Source: Minisyncoccota bacterium
GTDB taxonomy: Bacteria > Patescibacteriota > Minisyncoccia > Phycocordibacterales > UBA1006
Direction: 5' to 3'
Length of the DNA stretch: 25,314 nucleotides
Assembly: GCA_035426405.1 (NCBI GenBank)
Contig: DAOLZR010000001.1
Location: forward strand, 1 to 25,314
Shown here piece after piece: positions 11,933 to 18,287 of this stretch. The notes under the pieces are model-generated. The model did no database searches, was not told the DNA's origin, and saw nothing but the letters and a program-made list of their open reading frames with translations. A program made the translations under genes and the position numbers. Each line of letters starts with the position of its first letter. Positions within the stretch are counted from its first letter, which is position 1.

Positions 11933-13747
11933 TTATGATTTCTTTGCTCGCGCTCGTAATGATTCTTGGAGAATCTGTTTTCGTAATCGAACAGATTTTG
12001 GAGTGATTTCCAAATATTCATCAAGGTTCATTAATTCAAGTCCGCGTTCAATTGTAATTTCAATTGGTGGAATCAATGTAATTGTTTCATCAGTTCCAGA
12101 CGCACGCATGTTGGTAAGCTGTTTTCCTTTTGTAGGGTTTACAGCCATTTCATCACCTTTTGATGTGTTTCCGATAACCATACCTTCGTACACTTCAACA
12201 TTGGGACTGATGTACAAAACTCCACGGTCTTGTAAGTTTCCAAGTGAGAATGCAAGAACTTTTCCTGTTTCCATAGTTGTCATAGAACCAGTTAGTCGTT
12301 TTTGGATTGCTCCAGCGTATGGACGGAATTCCAGGAATCGTGTTGCCATAATTCCCTGTCCTCGCGTATCAATCATAAACTGTCCTCGGTAACCAAAGAT
12401 TCCACGAGTTGGCCCTTCAAATACCATACGAACTGAACTTTCATGCATTTTCATGTCTTTCATGATAAATCCACGCATTCCCAATTTTTCAATTACCAAT
12501 CCTTGTGCCTCTGAAGGAACATCGATTGTAACTTCTTCAAATGGTTCTGTTTTCACACCATCAACTTCTTTAAAGATTACCTGAGGTTGTGACACTTGAA
12601 TTTCATATCCTTCGCGTCGCATTGTTTCAAGCAATACCGCGATGTGCATTTCTCCTCGTCCGTATACCTTGAAACCTTCGATTGTTCGTTCTGAACTTGG
12701 TGCAAAATCTACCCGAAGCCCAACGTTTACTTCAAGTTCTCGTTCTAGTCGTTCACGAATTTGTCGAGTCGTTACGAATTTTCCTTCGCGTCCTGCAAAC
12801 GGTGAGTTGTTTACAAGGAAATCAAGTACGATTGTAGGTTCATCAATAGTAATAGCTGGAAGCGGATCAACAGTTGCATCGGTTGCGATTGTTTCTCCGA
12901 TAAAGATATCTGCAATTCCGGCAATCATTACAATGTCGCCAGCTACTGCTGTATCAACTTCTTTTTTCTGAGTTCCCTCAAATGTGAATAATTTTGTAAT
13001 TTTTCCATTTCGAGTTTCACCATCAGGTTTTCGAATAACAACATTCTGCCCGTTTTTTACAATACCTTCGAATACACGACCCACAGCCATACGACCAAGG
13101 AAGTTATCATAGGCCAAGTTGAATGCCTGCATTCGGAAAGTTTTTGTAGTATCGTTTGCAGCTGGTGGAACTTTTTCGATGATTGTATCGAATAATGGTT
13201 CCAAATTTACAAGCTCGTCTTCCATTGTTCGTTTTGCTGTTCCATCTCGTCCAATGGCATACACAGTTGTGAAATCTAATTGTTCGTCGTTAGCGCCAAG
13301 TTCCATGAATAATTCGAATACTTCATCATGTGCTCGTGCAGGATCTGCTCCTGGCTTATCGATCTTGTTCAAAACCAAAATAGGCTTCAGTCCAAGTTCA
13401 AGAGATTTTTTAAGTACGAAGCGAGTCTGAGGCATTGGTCCTTCTTGTGCATCCACAACTAATAATACCGAGTCAATTGACCGCAGTACGCGTTCTACCT
13501 CTGATCCAAAGTCGGCGTGACCTGGTGTGTCCACGATATTGATCTTTGTCTTGTTTCCGGTAAGTTTTGATGTGTAAAACACAGATGTGTTTTTTGCATA
13601 AATGGTGATACCACGCTCTTGTTCAAGTGCGTTTGAGTCCATTGACACACCTTCCTCACGCATACCACACTGTTCCAACATTTCGTCGGTTAAAGTAGTT
13701 TTTCCGTGGTCTACATGGGCAATAATTGCAATGTTTCGAATTTCCAT
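11933..13747 (-). CDS. typA: Translational GTPase TypA/BipA
   Basis: RNIAIIAHVDHGKTT, EQERGITI, DTPGHADFG, NKID, NNSPFAGREGKFVTTRQI, GRGEMH, EITPKSVRLRK. Confidence 0.98.
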   Translation of the reverse strand: MEIRNIAIIAHVDHGKTTLTDEMLEQCGMREEGVSMDSNALEQERGITIYAKNTSVFYTSKLTGNKTKINIVDTPGHADFGSEVERVLRSIDSVLLVVDAQEGPMPQTRFVLKKSLELGLKPILVLNKIDKPGADPARAHDEVFELFMELGANDEQLDFTTVYAIGRDGTAKRTMEDELVNLEPLFDTIIEKVPPAANDTTKTFRMQAFNLAYDNFLGRMAVGRVFEGIVKNGQNVVIRKPDGETRNGKITKLFTFEGTQKKEVDTAVAGDIVMIAGIADIFIGETIATDATVDPLPAITIDEPTIVLDFLVNNSPFAGREGKFVTTRQIRERLERELEVNVGLRVDFAPSSERTIEGFKVYGRGEMHIAVLLETMRREGYEIQVSQPQVIFKEVDGVKTEPFEEVTIDVPSEAQGLVIEKLGMRGFIMKDMKMHESSVRMVFEGPTRGIFGYRGQFMIDTRGQGIMATRFLEFRPYAGAIQKRLTGSMTTMETGKVLAFSLGNLQDRGVLYISPNVEVYEGMVIGNTSKGDEMAVNPTKGKQLTNMRASGTDETITLIPPIEITIERGLELMNLDEYLEITPKSVRLRKQILQESLRARAKKS

Positions 13748-13868: not shown

Positions 13869-15074
13869 CTAACCGGCCAATGTTACATCAATTGCTTTCC
13901 ATGGGAGTGTCTGACCGGCAAACGGTGTGACAGCTCCATAATAATTCTCTTTCACAAAATTTGGTTCACGCACAATTGCAATACGCTTGTAAATCTTTTT
14001 CGGCTTTATTCCATAAACTCCCAATCCAATATCACTTGCGAATCGTTGGAATTCAGATAAAAAACCAGGTTCTGTTTTATCGAAAGCTAAAAATTGCATA
14101 AAATACATTTCTAAACTGATCGGGCTTGTGAACACGCCGCATGCACATCCTTCAATGTATTTTCTATCAGGCGTATGAAATGCTGTGTCGTCGCCTAGAA
14201 AGACTTTATTAACTTTCTTTTTATATTGCGAATAAAGTAATCTGCGAACTGCATTTAAATCTTCTTCTGGTTTTAATACAGGCATACATACCATTGATGG
14301 ATATAGTGCCATTTTACTTTCGATCTCATAAAAATCATCTTTTATTCTTGCTTTATGAAAAATGACATCATTAGTAAACAACATATGATGTGGTGTTATT
14401 GTCGCAAAAACATTGTCATATGATGCTACAAATTCACAACCAGTTCGTGTTGAAATATGCTCTGCAACAACTGGTCCTGTATACCACTTCATCAAGTGTT
14501 CACCGGTACTTTGATAGAAAGCCGGCTCTCTTTTATCGCGATGAATACATGCACCACTTTGATACTCAGGAGTTTCTCCGTGGATACTAAATACAACACC
14601 AAGATCCGACATACATTCTAATTGCTTACGCACCGATTCTAATTCGGCTAATCCGTTTTCACTATTAGTGGTTCCGCCCTTTGGGTAAAATTTTACATTG
14701 CCAATTAATCCTTCGTTTTTTGCTTTTCTTATATCAGAAACAGAAAGTGTAGGATTTAAATAAAATGAAAATATTGGTAAAAATGATTCATTATTTCCAG
14801 ATATTTCCATAATGTGATCACGATACCAAAGTAACTTATCAATAGATGTAATACCCATTTTATCGTCACCGATTTCTGAAACCATAACATTCGGCATTAT
14901 CTGTTGTACCCAAAATTGCTGCTTCATATATGGAATAATCCATTGTGCCTCCTGGTCACGCCTTGCGTGTCCATGGAAATTTGTAGGATTATTCAAAACG
15001 AAAAGAATATCATCTTCTGTTATCTGTAATCCATGCTGTCTTTGTAAAAAATCTAAAATTACTGTCTTGTTCAT
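13869..15074 (-). CDS. pyrC: Dihydroorotase, homodimeric (E. coli-type), divergent
   Basis: NFHGHAR (HxH), VKFYPKGGTTNSENG, SIHGE, AEHIST, ATITPHH, CMPVLK, FLGDDTAFH, GCACGVF; all six metal-ligand equivalents present. Confidence 0.9.
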   Translation of the reverse strand: MNKTVILDFLQRQHGLQITEDDILFVLNNPTNFHGHARRDQEAQWIIPYMKQQFWVQQIMPNVMVSEIGDDKMGITSIDKLLWYRDHIMEISGNNESFLPIFSFYLNPTLSVSDIRKAKNEGLIGNVKFYPKGGTTNSENGLAELESVRKQLECMSDLGVVFSIHGETPEYQSGACIHRDKREPAFYQSTGEHLMKWYTGPVVAEHISTRTGCEFVASYDNVFATITPHHMLFTNDVIFHKARIKDDFYEIESKMALYPSMVCMPVLKPEEDLNAVRRLLYSQYKKKVNKVFLGDDTAFHTPDRKYIEGCACGVFTSPISLEMYFMQFLAFDKTEPGFLSEFQRFASDIGLGVYGIKPKKIYKRIAIVREPNFVKENYYGAVTPFAGQTLPWKAIDVTLAG

Positions 15075-15076
15075 TG

Positions 15077-16075
15077 TTAATAATTTTTATATGAAAAAAT
15101 ATTTTTTCCATGATTAATTAATGATTGCATACGCCATGGACGCGTAATTGCAACCGACCCCAGGGCAATAGCTTTTACACAGCGGAATTTTGATAGACGA
15201 GTAATATTATCTTTCGTCATAATTCCGCCACCAGCGATAATAGTTACATTAGGATCGACACGATCCATTTCCTTTAACCAATCTACTAAAACAGGAAATA
15301 ATGGCTGTCCAGATAATCCGCCTTGGAAATTTGTTCCGAAGATTCTGGCGAGTGGCGATCCATTTCTAAAGAATTTCTTCCACTGCACTTGTTCCGGTAA
15401 TTTTCCAAACGCGAGCGTATTGCCCATGCATATTGCATCGCAATGTTTTTGTAATTGACTTACCACTTGCTGACTAATTGTCAAATCTAATTTAAAGATC
15501 AGTGGAGTGTCAGGCATTAGTATTTTAAATACTTTTGCAAGTGCAATCCATTCTTCAAGCGCTTCTGTCTGTGCATGACCCGTATTAGGGCATGACACAT
15601 TCATTTGAACACCATACGCATGTTTTATTGGCGGAAGATGATACAGCATCCATTCACAAAATTGTTTCACTTCTGCAATCTTTCCTTGCAATATTGACTC
15701 CATTGGCATAAAGGAAATTTGAAAAGGTTCTGTGCGCTTTTGCCACTTATTCAAACCTATCAGAAAAATGGTACCGGGTGTTGGAATACCCATAGCATTA
15801 AGTACATAACCTTGTATGATAGATTTCAAACTAAACCAAATTGATTTTGGAAACCATTGTTTTAATTTGTAACCCACAAGTGCGGTTTGTGATTTTTCCG
15901 GATAAATTCGTGCGTGTAAACTTGTTGTTTTTGCAACAAATGTCATCCCAGAAAACGAAAATCCAAATATGAATTTTAATAATTTATGATGAGGATATTC
16001 GTCACCTTCACCAAAGAATCCTTGAATACCTGATTGACCAAAGACATGTCCAAAATTAATGTTTTTTAATTTCAT
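15077..16075 (-). CDS. pyrD: Dihydroorotate dehydrogenase, class 1-like (catalytic Cys), divergent
   Basis: AKTT, NAMG, NVSCPN (catalytic Cys), IFKL, GNTL, GGLSG, IIAGGGI, GS; sits directly upstream of pyrC (2-nt gap). Confidence 0.82.
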   Translation of the reverse strand: MKLKNINFGHVFGQSGIQGFFGEGDEYPHHKLLKFIFGFSFSGMTFVAKTTSLHARIYPEKSQTALVGYKLKQWFPKSIWFSLKSIIQGYVLNAMGIPTPGTIFLIGLNKWQKRTEPFQISFMPMESILQGKIAEVKQFCEWMLYHLPPIKHAYGVQMNVSCPNTGHAQTEALEEWIALAKVFKILMPDTPLIFKLDLTISQQVVSQLQKHCDAICMGNTLAFGKLPEQVQWKKFFRNGSPLARIFGTNFQGGLSGQPLFPVLVDWLKEMDRVDPNVTIIAGGGIMTKDNITRLSKFRCVKAIALGSVAITRPWRMQSLINHGKNIFSYKNY

Positions 16076-16213
16076 GTGATTTCAATTTAAATTGTTATTG
16101 TAAATGTACTGTTTTTATTTTAAAAATGATTTAAAAATTTGTCATTATAATAAATATTTTTACAGAAAAGTCAATATCACCATAAGTCAATAGGTTTTTC
16201 TCGTTTAATTTCA

Positions 16214-16222
16214 TGGTATAAT
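16214..16222 (+). promoter_or_regulatory. Extended -10 promoter (TGgTATAAT) for the Cache-cohesin gene
   Basis: Consensus extended -10, 28 nt upstream of ATG 16251. Confidence 0.6.
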
Positions 16223-16250
16223 CATCCTGTAATACACTATACTAATAACC

Positions 16251-18287
16251 ATGACTTTAAATCCGTTTAAAAAGCCAGTTTTTCATCTTCCTTCTATTGC
16301 TCGTGGTTTTAAAATTGCGACTGGTTTTTTTGTTCTTGCAACTATTACTATTTTCATAATTCAGATTTGTTATAACAAAAAGATGAACGACCAAGTGGTG
16401 AGTAAATTTAACACAGGTATCAACCAAGAACTAATGATGTTAAAACAAAACGGAGATGAAATTGCACAAAACGAGACTCTGAAAAAGTATATTCAACAAA
16501 AAGATATATATAGAGCGCTTGGACTACTTTCCGAAGAAAGCCGTAAGCGCGGTATCACGGCAGGATTAGTAACAGACGAGAATGGTATCGTAATTACACG
16601 AATTAGAACCATATCAAAACGAGGTGATAATGTTTTCTTGAATACACCACAGGGTAGAGCTTTAGTTCGCGGAGAACATCCAGCATCATTTGAAAAAGGA
16701 AGTATTGATCCAAGTAATGTTATTATGGTGACGGGTAGACCTATCACTAACCAACAAAAATTAATCGGCTCATTAATCAATGCACATACCCTAGATAATA
16801 CTTATGCCGCTAATTTTAAAACTAATTACTTGCCATTGAAAAGCGAAGTTGTTTTCTTTACAAAAGATTATGGAATATATGGCAGTAGTTTTACATCTGA
16901 ACAAGATAATAATTTATTAAGATCTTATTTTAGTAATGAATCTGATTGGATAAAAAAAGTAAAACCTGATGAGGTTATTGAATTTTCTGATGGTCGCCAC
17001 TATAAAGTTCATCAATTATTTTTAAAAGGATTAGAGAAAGATACTACTGGTGCACTTATTTTTATTCCAAAATATTCATTCAATGTATTCAGTTTTTCCA
17101 TAGCACTGATTGCAACATTACTATTTTTTTGTTTTGCAGTAATTAGTCATATTGTACATAAAAACCAAGAAACGCGAGCCTATCATTTTTACTGGATTAC
17201 TGCGCTTATTTCAATTTTTATTTTTTGTGGAATTATTATAATTTTTAAAATTTCTATAAATTATCATCAGAGACTTCGAGCACTTCCTTATGTTATATAT
17301 AATTCAACGCTTCGACTTCAACCTGACTCAGGAACATTTAGTACCGAATATGAGCAAAAGATCAGTATTATAATCGATAGTGGGGGCGAGCCTATAAACA
17401 CTATAGAAACAGTACTCTCTTTTGACCCTAGTAAATTAACAGTCGAAGAGGTATTAATGGAGAACTCTATCTGTGGTTATGTTGTCAAAAAAATTATCAA
17501 CCCTGAGGAAGGCACTGTGTCACTTTCTTGTATTATTCCAGATCCTGGGTTCAGTAAAAAAACAGGCGTAATTGGTGAGCTATTAATTCGCCCGAAACAA
17601 TCTGGATCGTTTTCACTTAAATTTTTACCTACAACGAAGATTCTTGCTAATGACGGTATAGCAACATCGGCACTGCGTATGGTGACAAATGGATCTTATC
17701 GAGCAGTCGATGAAGCAAAAAATACATCACTGTCGCTTTCCTCCCCAACCCATCCAAATACTGAACGGTGGTATAACGAAAAAGATATAACAATATTATG
17801 GAAAGGTCCTACAGAAATAAATTATCAATTAAAATCAAAAGATGGTCTTGTCATTACTGAAGGAACTACGCGTAAAAATAATTTTAATATAACTGTACCA
17901 AAAGATGGGACATATGTATTTTGGGCACAGGCAAATCAAAAAGATATTACTAGTATGGAAATGCCTCAGGAGTATATGTTAAATATAGACAGTACAAGTC
18001 CTGAACAGATTGCACTGAACGCAAGCGAAGAACGAGTTCATAAAAATGATGTTGTACGATTTGTTTCAAGCGGATCGGACAGTACAAGTGGCTTACAAGA
18101 TAATTATTATCTTAAAATTAATGACGGATTTCTATTACCTGTTGGAAAACAAGTTTTTATTCCGTTTACAAAAAAAGGTACCAATACGGTAACTCTTCGA
18201 ATATTCGATAATGCTGGAAACACAACAGAAACGAAAAAAATTATTTATGTCGTTGATGATTCCCTATTCCGTCGTCTTTTTAAATAA
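16251..18287 (+). CDS. Membrane protein: TM, double Cache-like sensor domain, 2 TM, cohesin-like domain, Ig-like repeats
   Basis: TM at aa ~21-40, ~279-302, ~313-335. Cache-like VTDENGIVITR..RGD..RAL.G..PI..IGSL..LD; cohesin-like aa ~352-485 (LRLQP..ISIIIDSGGEPINTIETVLSFDPSKL..ILANDG); SPTHPNTERWY and IDSTSPE Ig-like/PKD-like segments. Confidence 0.72.
   Translation: MTLNPFKKPVFHLPSIARGFKIATGFFVLATITIFIIQICYNKKMNDQVVSKFNTGINQELMMLKQNGDEIAQNETLKKYIQQKDIYRALGLLSEESRKRGITAGLVTDENGIVITRIRTISKRGDNVFLNTPQGRALVRGEHPASFEKGSIDPSNVIMVTGRPITNQQKLIGSLINAHTLDNTYAANFKTNYLPLKSEVVFFTKDYGIYGSSFTSEQDNNLLRSYFSNESDWIKKVKPDEVIEFSDGRHYKVHQLFLKGLEKDTTGALIFIPKYSFNVFSFSIALIATLLFFCFAVISHIVHKNQETRAYHFYWITALISIFIFCGIIIIFKISINYHQRLRALPYVIYNSTLRLQPDSGTFSTEYEQKISIIIDSGGEPINTIETVLSFDPSKLTVEEVLMENSICGYVVKKIINPEEGTVSLSCIIPDPGFSKKTGVIGELLIRPKQSGSFSLKFLPTTKILANDGIATSALRMVTNGSYRAVDEAKNTSLSLSSPTHPNTERWYNEKDITILWKGPTEINYQLKSKDGLVITEGTTRKNNFNITVPKDGTYVFWAQANQKDITSMEMPQEYMLNIDSTSPEQIALNASEERVHKNDVVRFVSSGSDSTSGLQDNYYLKINDGFLLPVGKQVFIPFTKKGTNTVTLRIFDNAGNTTETKKIIYVVDDSLFRRLFK

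What the first reader, a model, noticed from the sequence alone, without database searches (positions are those of the whole stretch)
16251..18287. Cache sensor domain fused to cohesin and Ig domains with no cytoplasmic output
Seen: predicted topology is TM1, extracellular double-Cache-like domain, TM2, ~10-aa inner loop (HKNQETRAYH), TM3, then extracellular cohesin-like and Ig-like domains. There is no HAMP, kinase, GGDEF or MCP domain. Established: Cache domains normally signal inward to such outputs. Inference: an outside-to-outside device in which ligand binding could regulate or localise docking of a dockerin-bearing structure, or a nutrient-capturing scaffold. I know of no characterised protein with this architecture.
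Basis: partly seen in the sequence, partly recalled or inferred. Interest (0 to 1): 0.7.

Follow-up and report, generated by a model that had tools for sequence, protein, structure and literature searches.

The report
Outward-facing Cache sensor fused to cohesin
This gene from an ultra-small (CPR/Saccharibacteria) wastewater bacterium encodes a membrane protein whose ligand-sensor domain and protein-docking (cohesin) domain both face outward with nothing inside the cell. It is most likely a chemically responsive socket for the base of the neighbouring pilus, an arrangement I found described in no paper.

Summary
ORF 16251-18287 (+) encodes 678 aa: a 21-aa tail, TM1, a double-Cache domain (AF2 pLDDT 95.6; VIA Z 16.3 to DctB), TM2, the 10-aa loop HKNQETRAYH, TM3, a cohesin fold, then two Ig-like domains. 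There is no cytoplasmic output.

It is not a chimera. More than 200 full-length relatives exist at 50% clustering, and independent wastewater assemblies span the gene.

The context changes the reading. The adjacent operon is a Pam pilus operon of CPR bacteria. It holds the only dockerin found in this assembly (79.5% complete) and a small membrane cohesin. Across Patescibacteria a cassette recurs: chaperone, dockerin protein, small cohesin, large cohesin-Ig-Ig anchor. The large anchor normally has a C-terminal TM and a conserved cytoplasmic tail. The 678-aa protein is a rare variant (about 1-2% of sampled species) in which an N-terminal TM-dCache-TM-TM unit replaces that anchor. Split forms, and a fusion to a canonical anchor, tie the Cache unit to the cohesin independently.

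Most likely it is an alternative socket for the dockerin-capped pilus base, with an extracellular ligand input. Docking and ligand control are inferred. I found no paper on it. This scan noted the same architecture once before, on other DNA, without follow-up.

The parts
16251..18287 (+). Whole gene: 678-aa Cache-cohesin membrane protein (P0001)
   Evidence: ORF list and translation. Full-length relatives at 31-41% identity. Spanned whole by independent contigs.
16251..16376 (+). Cytoplasmic N-terminal tail (res 1-21, 4 K/R) and TM1 (res 22-42)
   Evidence: Hydropathy. Family mean net charge of the tail is +3.25. In the model the helix runs on into the Cache stalk.
16377..17078 (+). Extracytoplasmic double-Cache (dCache_3-like) domain, res 43-276: stalk helix 43-99, membrane-distal PDC module about 100-195, proximal module about 196-276
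   Evidence: AF2 pLDDT 95.6. Foldseek matches DctB, LuxQ, Mlp24 and PctA. VIA Z 16.3. dCache_3 in 32 of 65 members. Conserved G112, R117, G125-D126, F129, G135(-R136) and G173 lie in the distal module.
17085..17258 (+). TM2 (res 279-302), 10-aa cytoplasmic loop HKNQETRAYH (303-312), TM3 (313-336)
   Evidence: Hydropathy. Loop net charge is +3.29 across the family. This is the least conserved part of the protein (top-residue frequency 0.21-0.31).
17298..17720 (+). Cohesin domain, res 350-490, with invariant C408/C427 and the motif LANDGLGTxVLR
   Evidence: Foldseek TM 0.69-0.72 to CaCohA2, and top hit 2w1n cohesin+FN3. Pfam Cohesin E 0.007 here and in 19 of 65 members. An iterated local HMM joins it to the neighbouring 217-aa cohesin. 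Most conserved domain of the protein.
17727..18254 (+). Two Ig-like domains: Ig1/FN3-like (res 493-585, motif SPTHPNxxRWY) and Ig2 (res 586-668, PKD / OmpL47-type / Big_13-like)
   Evidence: Pfam PKD E 4e-4. NCBIfam barrel_OmpL47 E 3.6e-9. The same two domains follow the cohesin in canonical CPR anchors.
18245..18898 (-). Neighbour: small cohesin anchor (217 aa; signal peptide, cohesin, C-terminal TM), convergent, with a 43-nt 3' overlap
   Evidence: Pfam Cohesin E 0.06. Iterated HMM E 4e-34. Groups with the 'small cohesin' proteins of other cassettes.
18905..19531 (-). Neighbour: 208-aa secreted protein with a Big_6 Ig domain and a C-terminal type I dockerin (nt 18908-19117). It is the presumed plug.
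   Evidence: Pfam Dockerin_1 29.2 bits (cut-off 22.9) and Big_6 28.3 bits. Two DxNxDxxxxxxD loops are visible in the sequence. Only dockerin found in the assembly.
19547..22630 (-). Neighbours: membrane-anchored chaperone-like protein (334 aa) and two Pam-type pilins (349 and 323 aa)
   Evidence: NCBIfam CPR_Pam_pilin_C 77.2 and 75.3 bits (cut-off 55). The same chaperone-dockerin-cohesin order occurs in 12 other genomes.

Best explanation
The protein is a membrane socket of the CPR cohesin-dockerin pilus-anchoring cassette, built with an unusual anchor.

Shown:
- It has three TM helices, and only 21 + 10 residues are predicted to be cytoplasmic.
- A dCache ligand-binding domain lies between TM1 and TM2.
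- A cohesin-Ig-Ig arm follows TM3.
- Hydropathy, charge bias and fusion/split relatives all place both the Cache domain and the arm on the outside.
- The cohesin-Ig-Ig arm is the same module that, in canonical cassettes, follows a signal peptide and ends in a TM helix plus a conserved ~85-aa cytoplasmic tail.

Inferred, step 1: the cohesin binds the C-terminal dockerin of the 208-aa protein next door. That protein is the only dockerin carrier found in this assembly. It most likely caps the base of the Pam pilus, standing in for the TM-anchored PamR of Ca. Mycosynbacter. The 678-aa protein and the 217-aa small cohesin would then be alternative sockets that hold the pilus to the membrane.

Inferred, step 2 (least supported): the dCache domain still binds a small molecule in its membrane-distal pocket, where R117, G125-D126, F129 and G135-R136 are conserved. 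No transmitter exists inside the cell, so any effect must be passed on outside it or within the membrane. The likely routes are movement of TM2 carried over the short hairpin to TM3 and the cohesin arm, or ligand-dependent dimerisation. The outcome would be a change in how, where or whether the pilus base is docked. In the canonical anchor the input would come from the cytoplasmic tail; here it would come from outside.
For: - Architecture and topology.
- Whole-length conservation.
- Dockerin and cohesin count in this assembly: one dockerin, two cohesins, all within 3 kb.
- Adjacent Pam operon.
- Canonical cassette (chaperone, dockerin, small cohesin, large cohesin-Ig-Ig) in 12 of 12 re-fetched loci. 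Its large anchor carries a conserved tail that the Cache form lacks.
- The fused gene lies beside cohesin, dockerin or pilus genes in 6 of 26 loci. Where it does not (G018, G069), a dockerin-cohesin cassette lies elsewhere in the same genome.
- Independent links between the Cache unit and the cohesin:
  - Split forms in G108 and G285: a multi-TM-dCache-TM gene directly followed by a TM-cohesin-Ig1 gene, inside a chaperone/cohesin cassette that in G285 also holds the dockerin gene.
  - P0023: a canonical anchor fused in front of the whole Cache-cohesin protein, with a TM count that keeps both cohesins outside.
  - P0090: a roughly nine-TM domain fused in front.
- On a quick tree, Cache-linked cohesins group together.
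- The cytoplasmic loop and the TMs are the least conserved parts, and the cohesin and Ig2 the most.
- No HisKA or HATPase_c was found in the assembly.
Against: - No binding, ligand or localisation data exist.
- No multimer prediction could be run.
- The full-length model has pTM 0.48, so any Cache-cohesin contact is unknown.
- 20 of 26 fused loci have no cohesin, dockerin or pilus gene within the DNA held.
- The single-protein Pfam scores for Cache and cohesin are below threshold.
- R163 of the putative pocket is variable.
- The genome is only 79.5% complete, so 'one dockerin' and 'no kinase' are lower bounds. Two response regulators are present.
- Deep nodes of the cohesin tree are weakly supported, and only the quick search finished.
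- The RNA evidence is one 171-nt contig at depth 2.
Confidence: 0.5

Rival explanations
1. Constitutive structural anchor. The cohesin arm docks the pilus base as above, but the dCache domain no longer senses anything. It would serve as a dimerising, spacing or cell-wall-binding module that, with three TM helices, gives a firmer hold for a load-bearing filament.
For: - dCache domains of kinases and chemoreceptors are dimeric (established knowledge).
- The stalk and the TMs are poorly conserved, and the pocket residue R163 varies.
- L018 carries a Cache-less derivative nested among the fused forms, so the arm can work without the Cache domain.
- Canonical anchors manage with one TM.
Against: - Pfam dCache_3 homology to true sensor domains is retained, above the gathering score in several members.
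- Conserved polar residues (R117, D126, R136) cluster in sequence where PDC domains bind ligands: the end of beta2, the beta2-beta3 insert and beta4.
- The R117/G125-D126-N127 motif persists in the split and multi-TM relatives.
Confidence: 0.25
2. Kinase-less co-sensor. The Cache-TM unit would signal sideways in the membrane to another protein, such as a histidine kinase, a transporter or the multi-TM partner seen in relatives. YycH/YycI do this with WalK. The cohesin arm would only localise the sensor at the pilus base.
For: - A WalK-YycH model is among the Foldseek hits, and NCBIfam HK_WalK matches weakly (E 4.6e-5) over TM1 and the distal module.
- Related dCache proteins carry 4-11 extra TM helices and no soluble output.
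- Two orphan response regulators exist in the genome.
Against: - TM1-3 and the loop are the least conserved regions, which does not fit a specific intramembrane partner.
- No HisKA or HATPase_c was found in the 506 kb held, and no kinase lies beside either response regulator.
- Across 115 flanking ORFs of 12 canonical cassettes, no kinase or receiver family was among the 25 most frequent Pfam families.
Confidence: 0.12
3. Nutrient-capture device. The Cache domain would bind a scavenged metabolite and hand it to a transporter, with the cohesin arm gathering dockerin-tagged helpers.
For: - A Vut_1 (YhhQ-type, queuosine-precursor transporter family) gene lies directly beside the Cache-cohesin gene in 8 of 26 loci.
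- Some solved dCache domains bind purines or uracil (titles of hits).
Against: - No Vut_1 was found in this genome.
- The polytopic domain fused in P0090 is not Vut_1.
- The only dockerin carrier here is a small non-enzymatic Ig protein inside a pilus operon.
- Cache domains are not known as substrate-binding proteins of transporters (established knowledge).
Confidence: 0.06
4. Assembly or gene-calling artefact that joins a sensor gene to a cohesin gene.
For: Split forms of the two halves do exist in other lineages.
Against: - The frame is open throughout.
- More than 200 diverged relatives match at E<1e-30, and the listed ones align over most of the length.
- 5 of 251 class genomes and 4 of 301 phylum genomes carry the same 660-730-aa frame.
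- Contigs from other studies (5029 and 6583 nt) span the junction.
Confidence: 0.01

Closest known systems
dCache (double-PDC) sensor domains of histidine kinases and chemoreceptors, e.g. DctB (3by9), LuxQ (3c38, 2hje), KinD (4jgo), PctA, Tlp3
   Same: Same fold and placement: a long stalk helix continuous with TM1, two PDC modules, and a return into the membrane through TM2. Pfam dCache_3 homology holds at family level.
   Different: There is no HAMP, DHp/CA, MCP, GGDEF or any other cytoplasmic transmitter. TM2 is followed by a 10-aa loop and a third TM that leads back outside to a cohesin.
Non-cellulosomal cohesin modules, e.g. the cohesin-FN3 pair of Clostridium perfringens GH84C (2w1n), and type I cohesins such as C. 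acetobutylicum CaCohA2 (6kgc)
   Same: Cohesin beta-sandwich followed by an FN3/Ig domain. A single cognate-looking type I dockerin is encoded next door.
   Different: The cohesin is membrane-anchored through a sensor unit. There is no CBM and there are no dockerin-tagged enzymes. The presumed partner is a pilus-base protein.
Pam pilus of CPR bacteria (Ca. Mycosynbacter amalyticus; Troman et al. 2026, bioRxiv 10.64898/2026.03.03.709456)
   Same: The adjacent operon has two pilins with the CPR_Pam_pilin_C domain and a membrane-anchored chaperone-like protein. The habitat is also shared (wastewater / activated sludge).
   Different: In the paper the filament is tethered by PamR through its own C-terminal TM helix. 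Cohesin, dockerin and Cache are not mentioned there. Here the terminator-like protein ends in a dockerin, and the membrane hold is delegated to cohesin proteins, one of which carries a Cache domain.
Canonical CPR 'large cohesin' anchors (signal peptide, cohesin, Ig1, Ig2, Big_13, TM, conserved cytoplasmic tail). I found no paper on them; this scan has noted them on other genomes.
   Same: Homologous cohesin-Ig1-Ig2 arm with the same motifs (LANDGLGT, THPxxxxWY), and the same cassette.
   Different: The domain order is permuted. The anchor is N-terminal and carries an extracellular dCache domain instead of a cytoplasmic tail.
Sensor-like ectodomain proteins that act only through protein contacts: YycH/YycI with WalK (bacteria), and the alpha2-delta subunits of voltage-gated Ca2+ channels (Cache domains, wholly extracellular). 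Recalled from established knowledge.
   Same: An extracytoplasmic domain with no cytoplasmic output (Cache in alpha2-delta), acting through contacts with another membrane protein.
   Different: Neither is fused to a docking module. No sequence relationship was shown here beyond the shared fold, apart from the WalK-YycH model hit.

Membership tests
dCache sensor domain (Pfam clan Cache; PF14827 dCache_3) | Significant match to a Cache-family profile | tested here: met
   The single protein gives no Pfam hit. However, 32 of 65 aligned full-length relatives hit dCache_3 (best 1.4e-10). Members P0033, P0149, P0159 and P0088 score 29.7-37.9 bits against a cut-off of 25.7.
dCache sensor domain (Pfam clan Cache; PF14827 dCache_3) | Two tandem PDC (alpha/beta) modules on a long N-terminal helix | tested here: met
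   AF2 pLDDT 95.6, with helix 41-72 followed by two five-stranded modules. VIA Z 16.3 over 216 aligned residues to DctB, and 43 chains at Z>=8; nearly all of those listed are sensor domains.
dCache sensor domain (Pfam clan Cache; PF14827 dCache_3) | Extracytoplasmic position between two TM helices | tested here: met
   Hydropathy and positive-inside statistics over 65 members. This is a prediction, not an experiment.
dCache sensor domain (Pfam clan Cache; PF14827 dCache_3) | Binds a small-molecule ligand in the membrane-distal module | not testable with these tools
   The only evidence is conservation of R117, G125-D126, F129, G135-R136 and G173 in the distal module.
Transmembrane receptors (sensor kinases, chemoreceptors, cyclases) | A cytoplasmic transmitter or output domain after the second TM | tested here: not met
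   Only 21 + 10 residues are predicted to be cytoplasmic. No HAMP, HisKA, HATPase_c, MCPsignal or GGDEF hit was found in the protein or in 65 relatives.
Cohesin (PF00963) | Profile match | tested here: inconclusive
   This protein scores 15.1 bits, E 0.007, against a cut-off of 24.1. 19 of 65 relatives hit at E<0.01, with P0159 at 25.1 bits. Paralogous arms in canonical anchors score 24.5-33.1 bits.
Cohesin (PF00963) | Nine-stranded jelly-roll beta-sandwich | tested here: met
   Foldseek matches 6kgc_A, 6kgd_A and 6kgf_C at TM 0.69-0.72 (target-normalised), rmsd 3.4-3.6, 147-154 columns. 2w1n, 3kcp and 4fl4 are among the top hits.
Cohesin (PF00963) | A cognate dockerin encoded in the same genome | tested here: met
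   One Dockerin_1 locus was found in the assembly, 620 nt away from this gene. G018, G069 and G121 also hold dockerins.
Cohesin (PF00963) | Ca2+-dependent binding of that dockerin | not testable with these tools
Pam pilus system (Troman et al. 2026) | Pilins with the Pam C-terminal truncated-Ig domain in the operon | tested here: met
   NCBIfam NF058581 scores 77.2 and 75.3 bits (cut-off 55) on the 349- and 323-aa neighbours.
Pam pilus system (Troman et al. 2026) | The protein in question is one of the described components (PamA-E, PamT, PamR) | tested here: not met
   No Pam model hits P0001. The paper names no cohesin, dockerin or Cache component.
Cellulosome scaffoldin | Several cohesins that gather dockerin-tagged enzymes, usually with a CBM | tested here: not met
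   There is one cohesin per protein, no CBM hit, and a single non-enzymatic dockerin protein in the assembly.

The most novel reading that the evidence does not exclude
A signalling path that never enters the cell. A diffusible, perhaps host-derived, molecule binds the dCache domain. Through the TM2-loop-TM3 hairpin, or through ligand-driven dimerisation, it switches the neighbouring cohesin between dockerin-accepting and dockerin-rejecting states. An epibiotic CPR bacterium would then attach, reposition or shed its Pam pilus in response to chemistry outside the cell. More widely, output-less dCache and CHASE membrane proteins encoded beside TM-anchored surface proteins in CPR genomes would form a class of 'outside-to-outside' regulators of surface structures.
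Probability: 0.25. Interest if true: 0.85.

Novelty: new variant of a known kind. Interest (0 to 1): 0.62.

Why it matters
Cache domains are the commonest extracellular sensors of prokaryotes. As far as I know they have been studied in bacteria as inputs to cytoplasmic transmitters. A conserved family in which the only thing wired to the sensor is another extracellular module would be a different logic of signal use, and it is directly testable with two small recombinant domains.

It also bears on how ultra-small, host-dependent CPR bacteria hold and perhaps control the pili they use to reach hosts. The Pam pilus paper leaves anchoring and release open. The cohesin-dockerin plug with up to three kinds of socket (plain, cytoplasmic-tail, Cache) offers a concrete model.

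The organism recurs in activated sludge and wastewater from many studies, the habitat of the cultivated Pam-pilus model organism, so experiments are within reach.

Tried and rejected
- Pfam and NCBIfam on the single protein gave no Cache or cohesin call. Hits were only weak PKD, OmpL47-type and WalK matches. Family-level scans and folds were needed.
- A profile of 16 relatives against PDB sequences found nothing meaningful (best E 0.6).
- The word-indexed search with the Cache region alone returned only 2 proteins and was useless for finding other architectures. A Cache-only profile over whole genomes replaced it.
- A cohesin HMM built from the fused family alone did not reach the 217-aa neighbour. 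An HMM iterated from the neighbour did.
- Vut_1 transporter link: the gene is adjacent in 8 of 26 loci, is not found in this genome, and is not the domain fused in P0090. I treat it as synteny only.
- Lead from earlier scan notes that cohesin-dockerin pairs are 'nearly always' flanked by two-component genes: this was not reproduced in 12 canonical cassettes. No kinase or receiver family was among the 25 most frequent of 155 Pfam families found in 115 flanking ORFs. Ten immediate neighbours were housekeeping genes. Only G015 has an output-less CHASE protein.
- The essential dockerin protein SEML1_0315 of Southlakia (PMC10633639) is a 927-aa Ig-repeat protein in a different context, and that paper's tables hold no cohesin annotation. 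It is not informative here.
- A weak tail-HMM hit at a contig end of G000 (C48, 51-aa frame, E 0.003) was rejected as chance.
- Transcription: one 171-nt contig at depth 2 in one metatranscriptome is too weak to claim expression.
- The promoter and terminator scans found no more than shuffled sequence gives.
- The careful maximum-likelihood search did not finish, so only the quick tree is reported.
- Model coordinates are not exposed to scripts. Pocket geometry, the C408-C427 distance and Cache-cohesin contacts could not be measured.
- The TM count, and therefore the topology, of the split and multi-TM relatives was not resolved by simple hydropathy.
- Database names: four NCBI/JGI/ENA cluster representatives carry no name.
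Full report
**1. What is there**

The frame 16251..18287 (+) is open from an ATG and encodes 678 residues. Hydropathy gives three membrane segments, at about 22-42, 279-302 and 313-336.

On this single sequence Pfam sees only a weak PKD match at 587-664, and nothing for Cache or cohesin. The domain calls therefore had to be tested at family and structure level.

**2. It is a real, conserved protein**

- A word-indexed search found 16 clusters of full-length relatives at 32-41% identity, one of them pre-annotated with PF14827 (dCache_3).
- An exhaustive phmmer search of 1.8 billion representatives found 206 proteins at E<1e-30. Nearly all of the 150 listed are 640-730 aa long and align over most of the query.
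- 19 loci from species-representative genomes all come from Patescibacteria/CPR MAGs (Saccharibacteria, Parcubacteria groups, Uhrbacteria). One MAG is labelled Gammaproteobacteria.
- The same DNA is near-identical in at least 14 activated-sludge or wastewater runs.
- Contigs of 5029 and 6583 nt from two other studies cover 15900-19600 in one piece, with two substitutions inside the gene. A third study's 2403-nt contig bridges the Cache-TM-cohesin junction.

**3. Domain calls**

- **Family-level Pfam.** Of 65 aligned relatives, 32 hit dCache_3 (best 1.4e-10), 19 hit Cohesin (best 4.7e-6) and 15 hit PKD. Several members pass the gathering scores.
- **Cache domain.** Residues 40-280, folded with a 103-sequence alignment, give pLDDT 95.6 and pTM 0.91. 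The model has a long helix followed by two alpha/beta modules. Foldseek puts DctB, vpHK1S-Z8, Mlp24, McpH, Tlp3, PctA, LuxQ and KinD on top (E 4e-10 to 1e-6). An independent all-against-representatives search gives Z 16.3 to DctB (216 residues, rmsd 4.5) and 43 chains at Z>=8, nearly all of those listed being sensor domains.
- **Cohesin and Ig domains.** The full-length model (pLDDT 76) matches cohesins in its C-terminal half. CaCohA2 gives target-normalised TM 0.69-0.72 and rmsd 3.4-3.7. The best hit overall is the cohesin+FN3 pair of C. perfringens GH84C. NCBIfam adds an OmpL47-type barrel at 599-665.

Both domain calls stand.

**4. Topology**

- Across the 65 relatives the N-terminal tail carries a mean net charge of +3.25 and the TM2-TM3 loop +3.29. 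The segment before TM2 is -0.11. This fits N-in, Cache out, loop in, C-terminal arm out.
- Two invariant cysteines (C408, C427) sit in the cohesin. That fits an extracytoplasmic domain, but the distance between them could not be measured.
- P0023 (1211 aa) fuses a signal peptide, cohesin, Ig domains, a TM helix and a lysine-rich linker to the front of a complete Cache-cohesin protein. Its number of TM helices keeps both cohesins outside.
- The cytoplasmic tail, the loop and all three TM helices are the least conserved parts (mean top-residue frequency 0.21-0.31). The cohesin and Ig2 are the most conserved (0.52-0.53), and the Cache modules lie in between (0.45-0.46).

There is therefore no room for a cytoplasmic output, and no sign of one.

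**5. The surroundings change the reading**

The genes converging on this one form a Pam pilus operon.

- The 349- and 323-aa proteins pass NCBIfam's CPR_Pam_pilin_C model (77 and 75 bits against a cut-off of 55).
- Pam pili are donor-strand-exchange filaments of CPR bacteria, described in 2026 for Ca. Mycosynbacter amalyticus. They have membrane-anchored chaperones and a terminator, PamR, which has its own TM helix. That paper does not mention cohesin, dockerin or Cache.
- In the window the protein after the chaperone-like gene is a 208-aa secreted Ig protein ending in a type I dockerin (29.2 bits against a cut-off of 22.9). Two DxNxDxxxxxxD loops are visible in its sequence.
- Next comes a 217-aa signal-peptide-cohesin-TM protein.
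- The whole 506-kb assembly (79.5% complete) shows one dockerin locus, and the only two cohesins I could find. All lie within 3 kb.

**6. A recurrent cassette, and where this protein fits in it**

A profile of the family, run over 301 evenly drawn Patescibacteria genomes, hit 76 of them. Only 4 hits were full length (G000, G069, G018, G121). Many of the rest matched only the cohesin-Ig-Ig part.

I re-fetched and annotated these places with local HMMs. In genome after genome the order is chaperone-like protein, dockerin protein, small cohesin (about 300 aa with a C-terminal TM), then a large cohesin of 550-750 aa. The large cohesin consists of a signal peptide, cohesin, Ig1, Ig2, often Big_13, and a TM helix. 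Its cohesin often passes Pfam's threshold. Pam-type pilins lie upstream in some of these loci.

The large anchors end in a conserved cytoplasmic tail of about 85 aa (E 1e-14 to 1e-31 in 16 distinct loci). The Cache form lacks this tail, and I did not find it in G000.

The 678-aa protein thus carries the standard arm on a different anchor. In G000, G069 and G121 it is the only cohesin-Ig-Ig protein found. In G018 a canonical trio lies 200 kb away on the same contig.

**7. Independent links between the Cache unit and the cohesin**

A Cache-only profile over the same 301 genomes found six more genomes.

- **Split forms.** In G108 and G285 a protein of about 402 aa (four to five TM helices, dCache_3 at 33-38 bits, one more TM) is directly followed on the same strand by a TM-cohesin-Ig1 protein. 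Both genes lie inside a chaperone/cohesin cassette, and the G285 cassette also holds the dockerin gene. This is the fused protein cut between TM2 and TM3.
- **Multi-TM forms.** In G065, G066, G245 and G016, output-less proteins with 8-11 TM helices, a dCache domain and a final TM lie next to giant (1149-2019 aa) signal- or TM-anchored proteins. In three of the four they lie directly upstream on the same strand.
- **CHASE neighbour.** In G015 an output-less TM-CHASE-TM protein follows the large cohesin gene.
- **Tree.** On a quick ML tree of 69 cohesin domains, the 22 Cache-fused cohesins, the two split-form cohesins and a Cache-less derivative (L018) fall on one side. They are apart from nearly all 'large' and 'small' paralogues, and four small cohesins from the split-form genomes group with them. 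SH-aLRT support is 79-89, the split-form branches are long, and the careful search did not finish.
- **Adjacency.** The fused gene sits beside cohesin, dockerin or pilus genes in 6 of 26 loci: the window, L003, L005, L010, L017 and L061.
- **Prevalence.** In a sample of its own class the fused form occurs in 5 of 251 genomes, in several families.

**8. How it most likely works**

Shown: the anatomy, the topology (by prediction), the conservation, the cassette, and the fusion and split relatives.

Inferred, step 1: the cohesin receives the dockerin of the 208-aa protein. That protein most likely closes the pilus base, as PamR does in Mycosynbacter. The pilus would then be plugged into membrane sockets instead of being anchored by its own TM helix.

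Inferred, step 2: the Cache domain still binds a ligand. R117, G125-D126, F129, G135-R136 and G173 are conserved in the membrane-distal module. The R...GDN motif persists in the split and multi-TM relatives, although R163 varies. Since nothing lies inside the cell, ligand binding can only act on the arm next to it (through the TM2-TM3 hairpin or through dimerisation) or on a neighbour in the membrane.

The contrast with the canonical anchor suggests two alternative inputs to one kind of socket: a conserved cytoplasmic tail there, and an extracellular sensor here. This is my reading, not a result.

I put 0.5 on the combined statement. The docking step is more likely than that, and the ligand-control step less likely.

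**9. Rivals**

- **Purely structural Cache (0.25).** Favoured by the Cache-less derivative and the variable pocket position. Opposed by retained profile homology and conserved polar residues at the usual ligand site.
- **Sideways-signalling co-sensor (0.12).** Favoured by the YycH/WalK-type precedents and the multi-TM relatives. Opposed by the poorly conserved TM helices and by the lack of any HisKA or HATPase_c in the assembly. Two response regulators exist, with no kinase beside them.
- **Nutrient capture (0.06).** Rests only on Vut_1 synteny.
- **Artefact (0.01).** Excluded.

**10. Comparison with the literature and with this scan**

No paper in the searchable library holds both 'Cache domain' and 'cohesin domain'. 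Papers that mention CPR, Patescibacteria or Saccharibacteria together with cohesin or dockerin do so only in passing.

Earlier notes of this scan describe cohesin-dockerin anchoring of CPR pili on other genomes. One unfollowed first-reader note (e1-2062260) describes the same three-TM sensor-cohesin architecture elsewhere. These were leads. I re-derived the points I use.

One earlier claim was that such pairs are nearly always flanked by two-component genes. It was not reproduced in my 12 cassettes.

**11. Verdict**

- Observation: confirmed.
- Interpretation: partly supported. The 'outside-to-outside' geometry is real. The partner is a pilus base, not a nutrient or enzyme complex. Regulation by ligand is untested.
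- Novelty: a new variant. A known sensor domain and a known docking module are joined in a way that removes the cytoplasm from the path, within a pilus-anchoring cassette that is itself not yet in the literature.
- Interest: 0.62.

Noticed in passing
window 18245-18287: The 3' ends of the convergent 678-aa gene (+) and the 217-aa cohesin gene (-) overlap by 43 nt. No terminator-like site lies between them.
   Followed up: partly
L022-L036, L046-L055 (e.g. L046:9955-12033): Canonical CPR 'large cohesin' anchors end in a conserved, charged, helix-like cytoplasmic tail of about 85 aa after the last TM (local HMM E 1e-14 to 1e-31 in 16 distinct loci). It has no Pfam name and its function is unknown. 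It is absent from the Cache-fused form.
   Followed up: partly
L046:12046-13086 (G015): A 347-aa TM-CHASE-TM protein with a 13-aa tail (Pfam CHASE E 1.9e-38) lies directly after the large cohesin gene. It is another output-less extracytoplasmic sensor inside the cassette.
   Followed up: partly
L042:6052-7563, L043:5136-6833, L044:6076-8040, L045:5471-7207: Output-less proteins with 8-11 TM helices, a dCache domain and one final TM lie next to genes for giant (1149-2019 aa) signal- or TM-anchored surface proteins in four unrelated CPR genomes; in three of them (L043-L045) they lie directly upstream on the same strand. One of them also has an N-terminal HTH_17 domain.
   Followed up: partly
L017:2407-3075 (-): A 222-aa protein carries both a cohesin (36-172) and a dockerin (162-222). 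It could act as an adaptor that chains sockets.
   Followed up: no
L003:8473-9153, L004:7143-7817, L005:9330-10004, L009:9228-9971, L010:9267-9941, L015:9261-9956, L019:9279-9956, L038:3813-4493: A Vut_1 (YhhQ-type, queuosine-precursor transporter family) gene lies directly beside the Cache-cohesin gene in 8 of 26 loci. It is on the same strand in seven of them. None was found in this window's genome.
   Followed up: partly
window 13869-16075 (-): Divergent upstream neighbours are a 332-aa dihydroorotate-dehydrogenase-like protein (Pfam DHO_dh E 4e-10) and a 401-aa protein with no Pfam hit. Then comes BipA/TypA (11933-13747). None shows a link to the surface genes.
   Followed up: no
G000 C17:1458-2168 and C5:10073-10444: The assembly has two response-regulator genes, but no HisKA or HATPase_c match anywhere in its 506 kb. 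The HATPase_c model should also detect a GyrB-type ATPase domain, so those genes probably lie in the missing 20%.
   Followed up: partly
window 15900-19600: The locus is near-identical in activated-sludge and wastewater metagenomes of at least nine studies (2017-2025). Most differences between strains lie in 15962-16163, upstream of the gene, including two small deletions at 16115-16118.
   Followed up: partly
G069:C2:331230-332048: One 377-aa frame holds about six tandem dockerin-like repeats (Dockerin_1 E 5.6e-9 to 1e-3), unlike the single-dockerin proteins of the cassettes.
   Followed up: no
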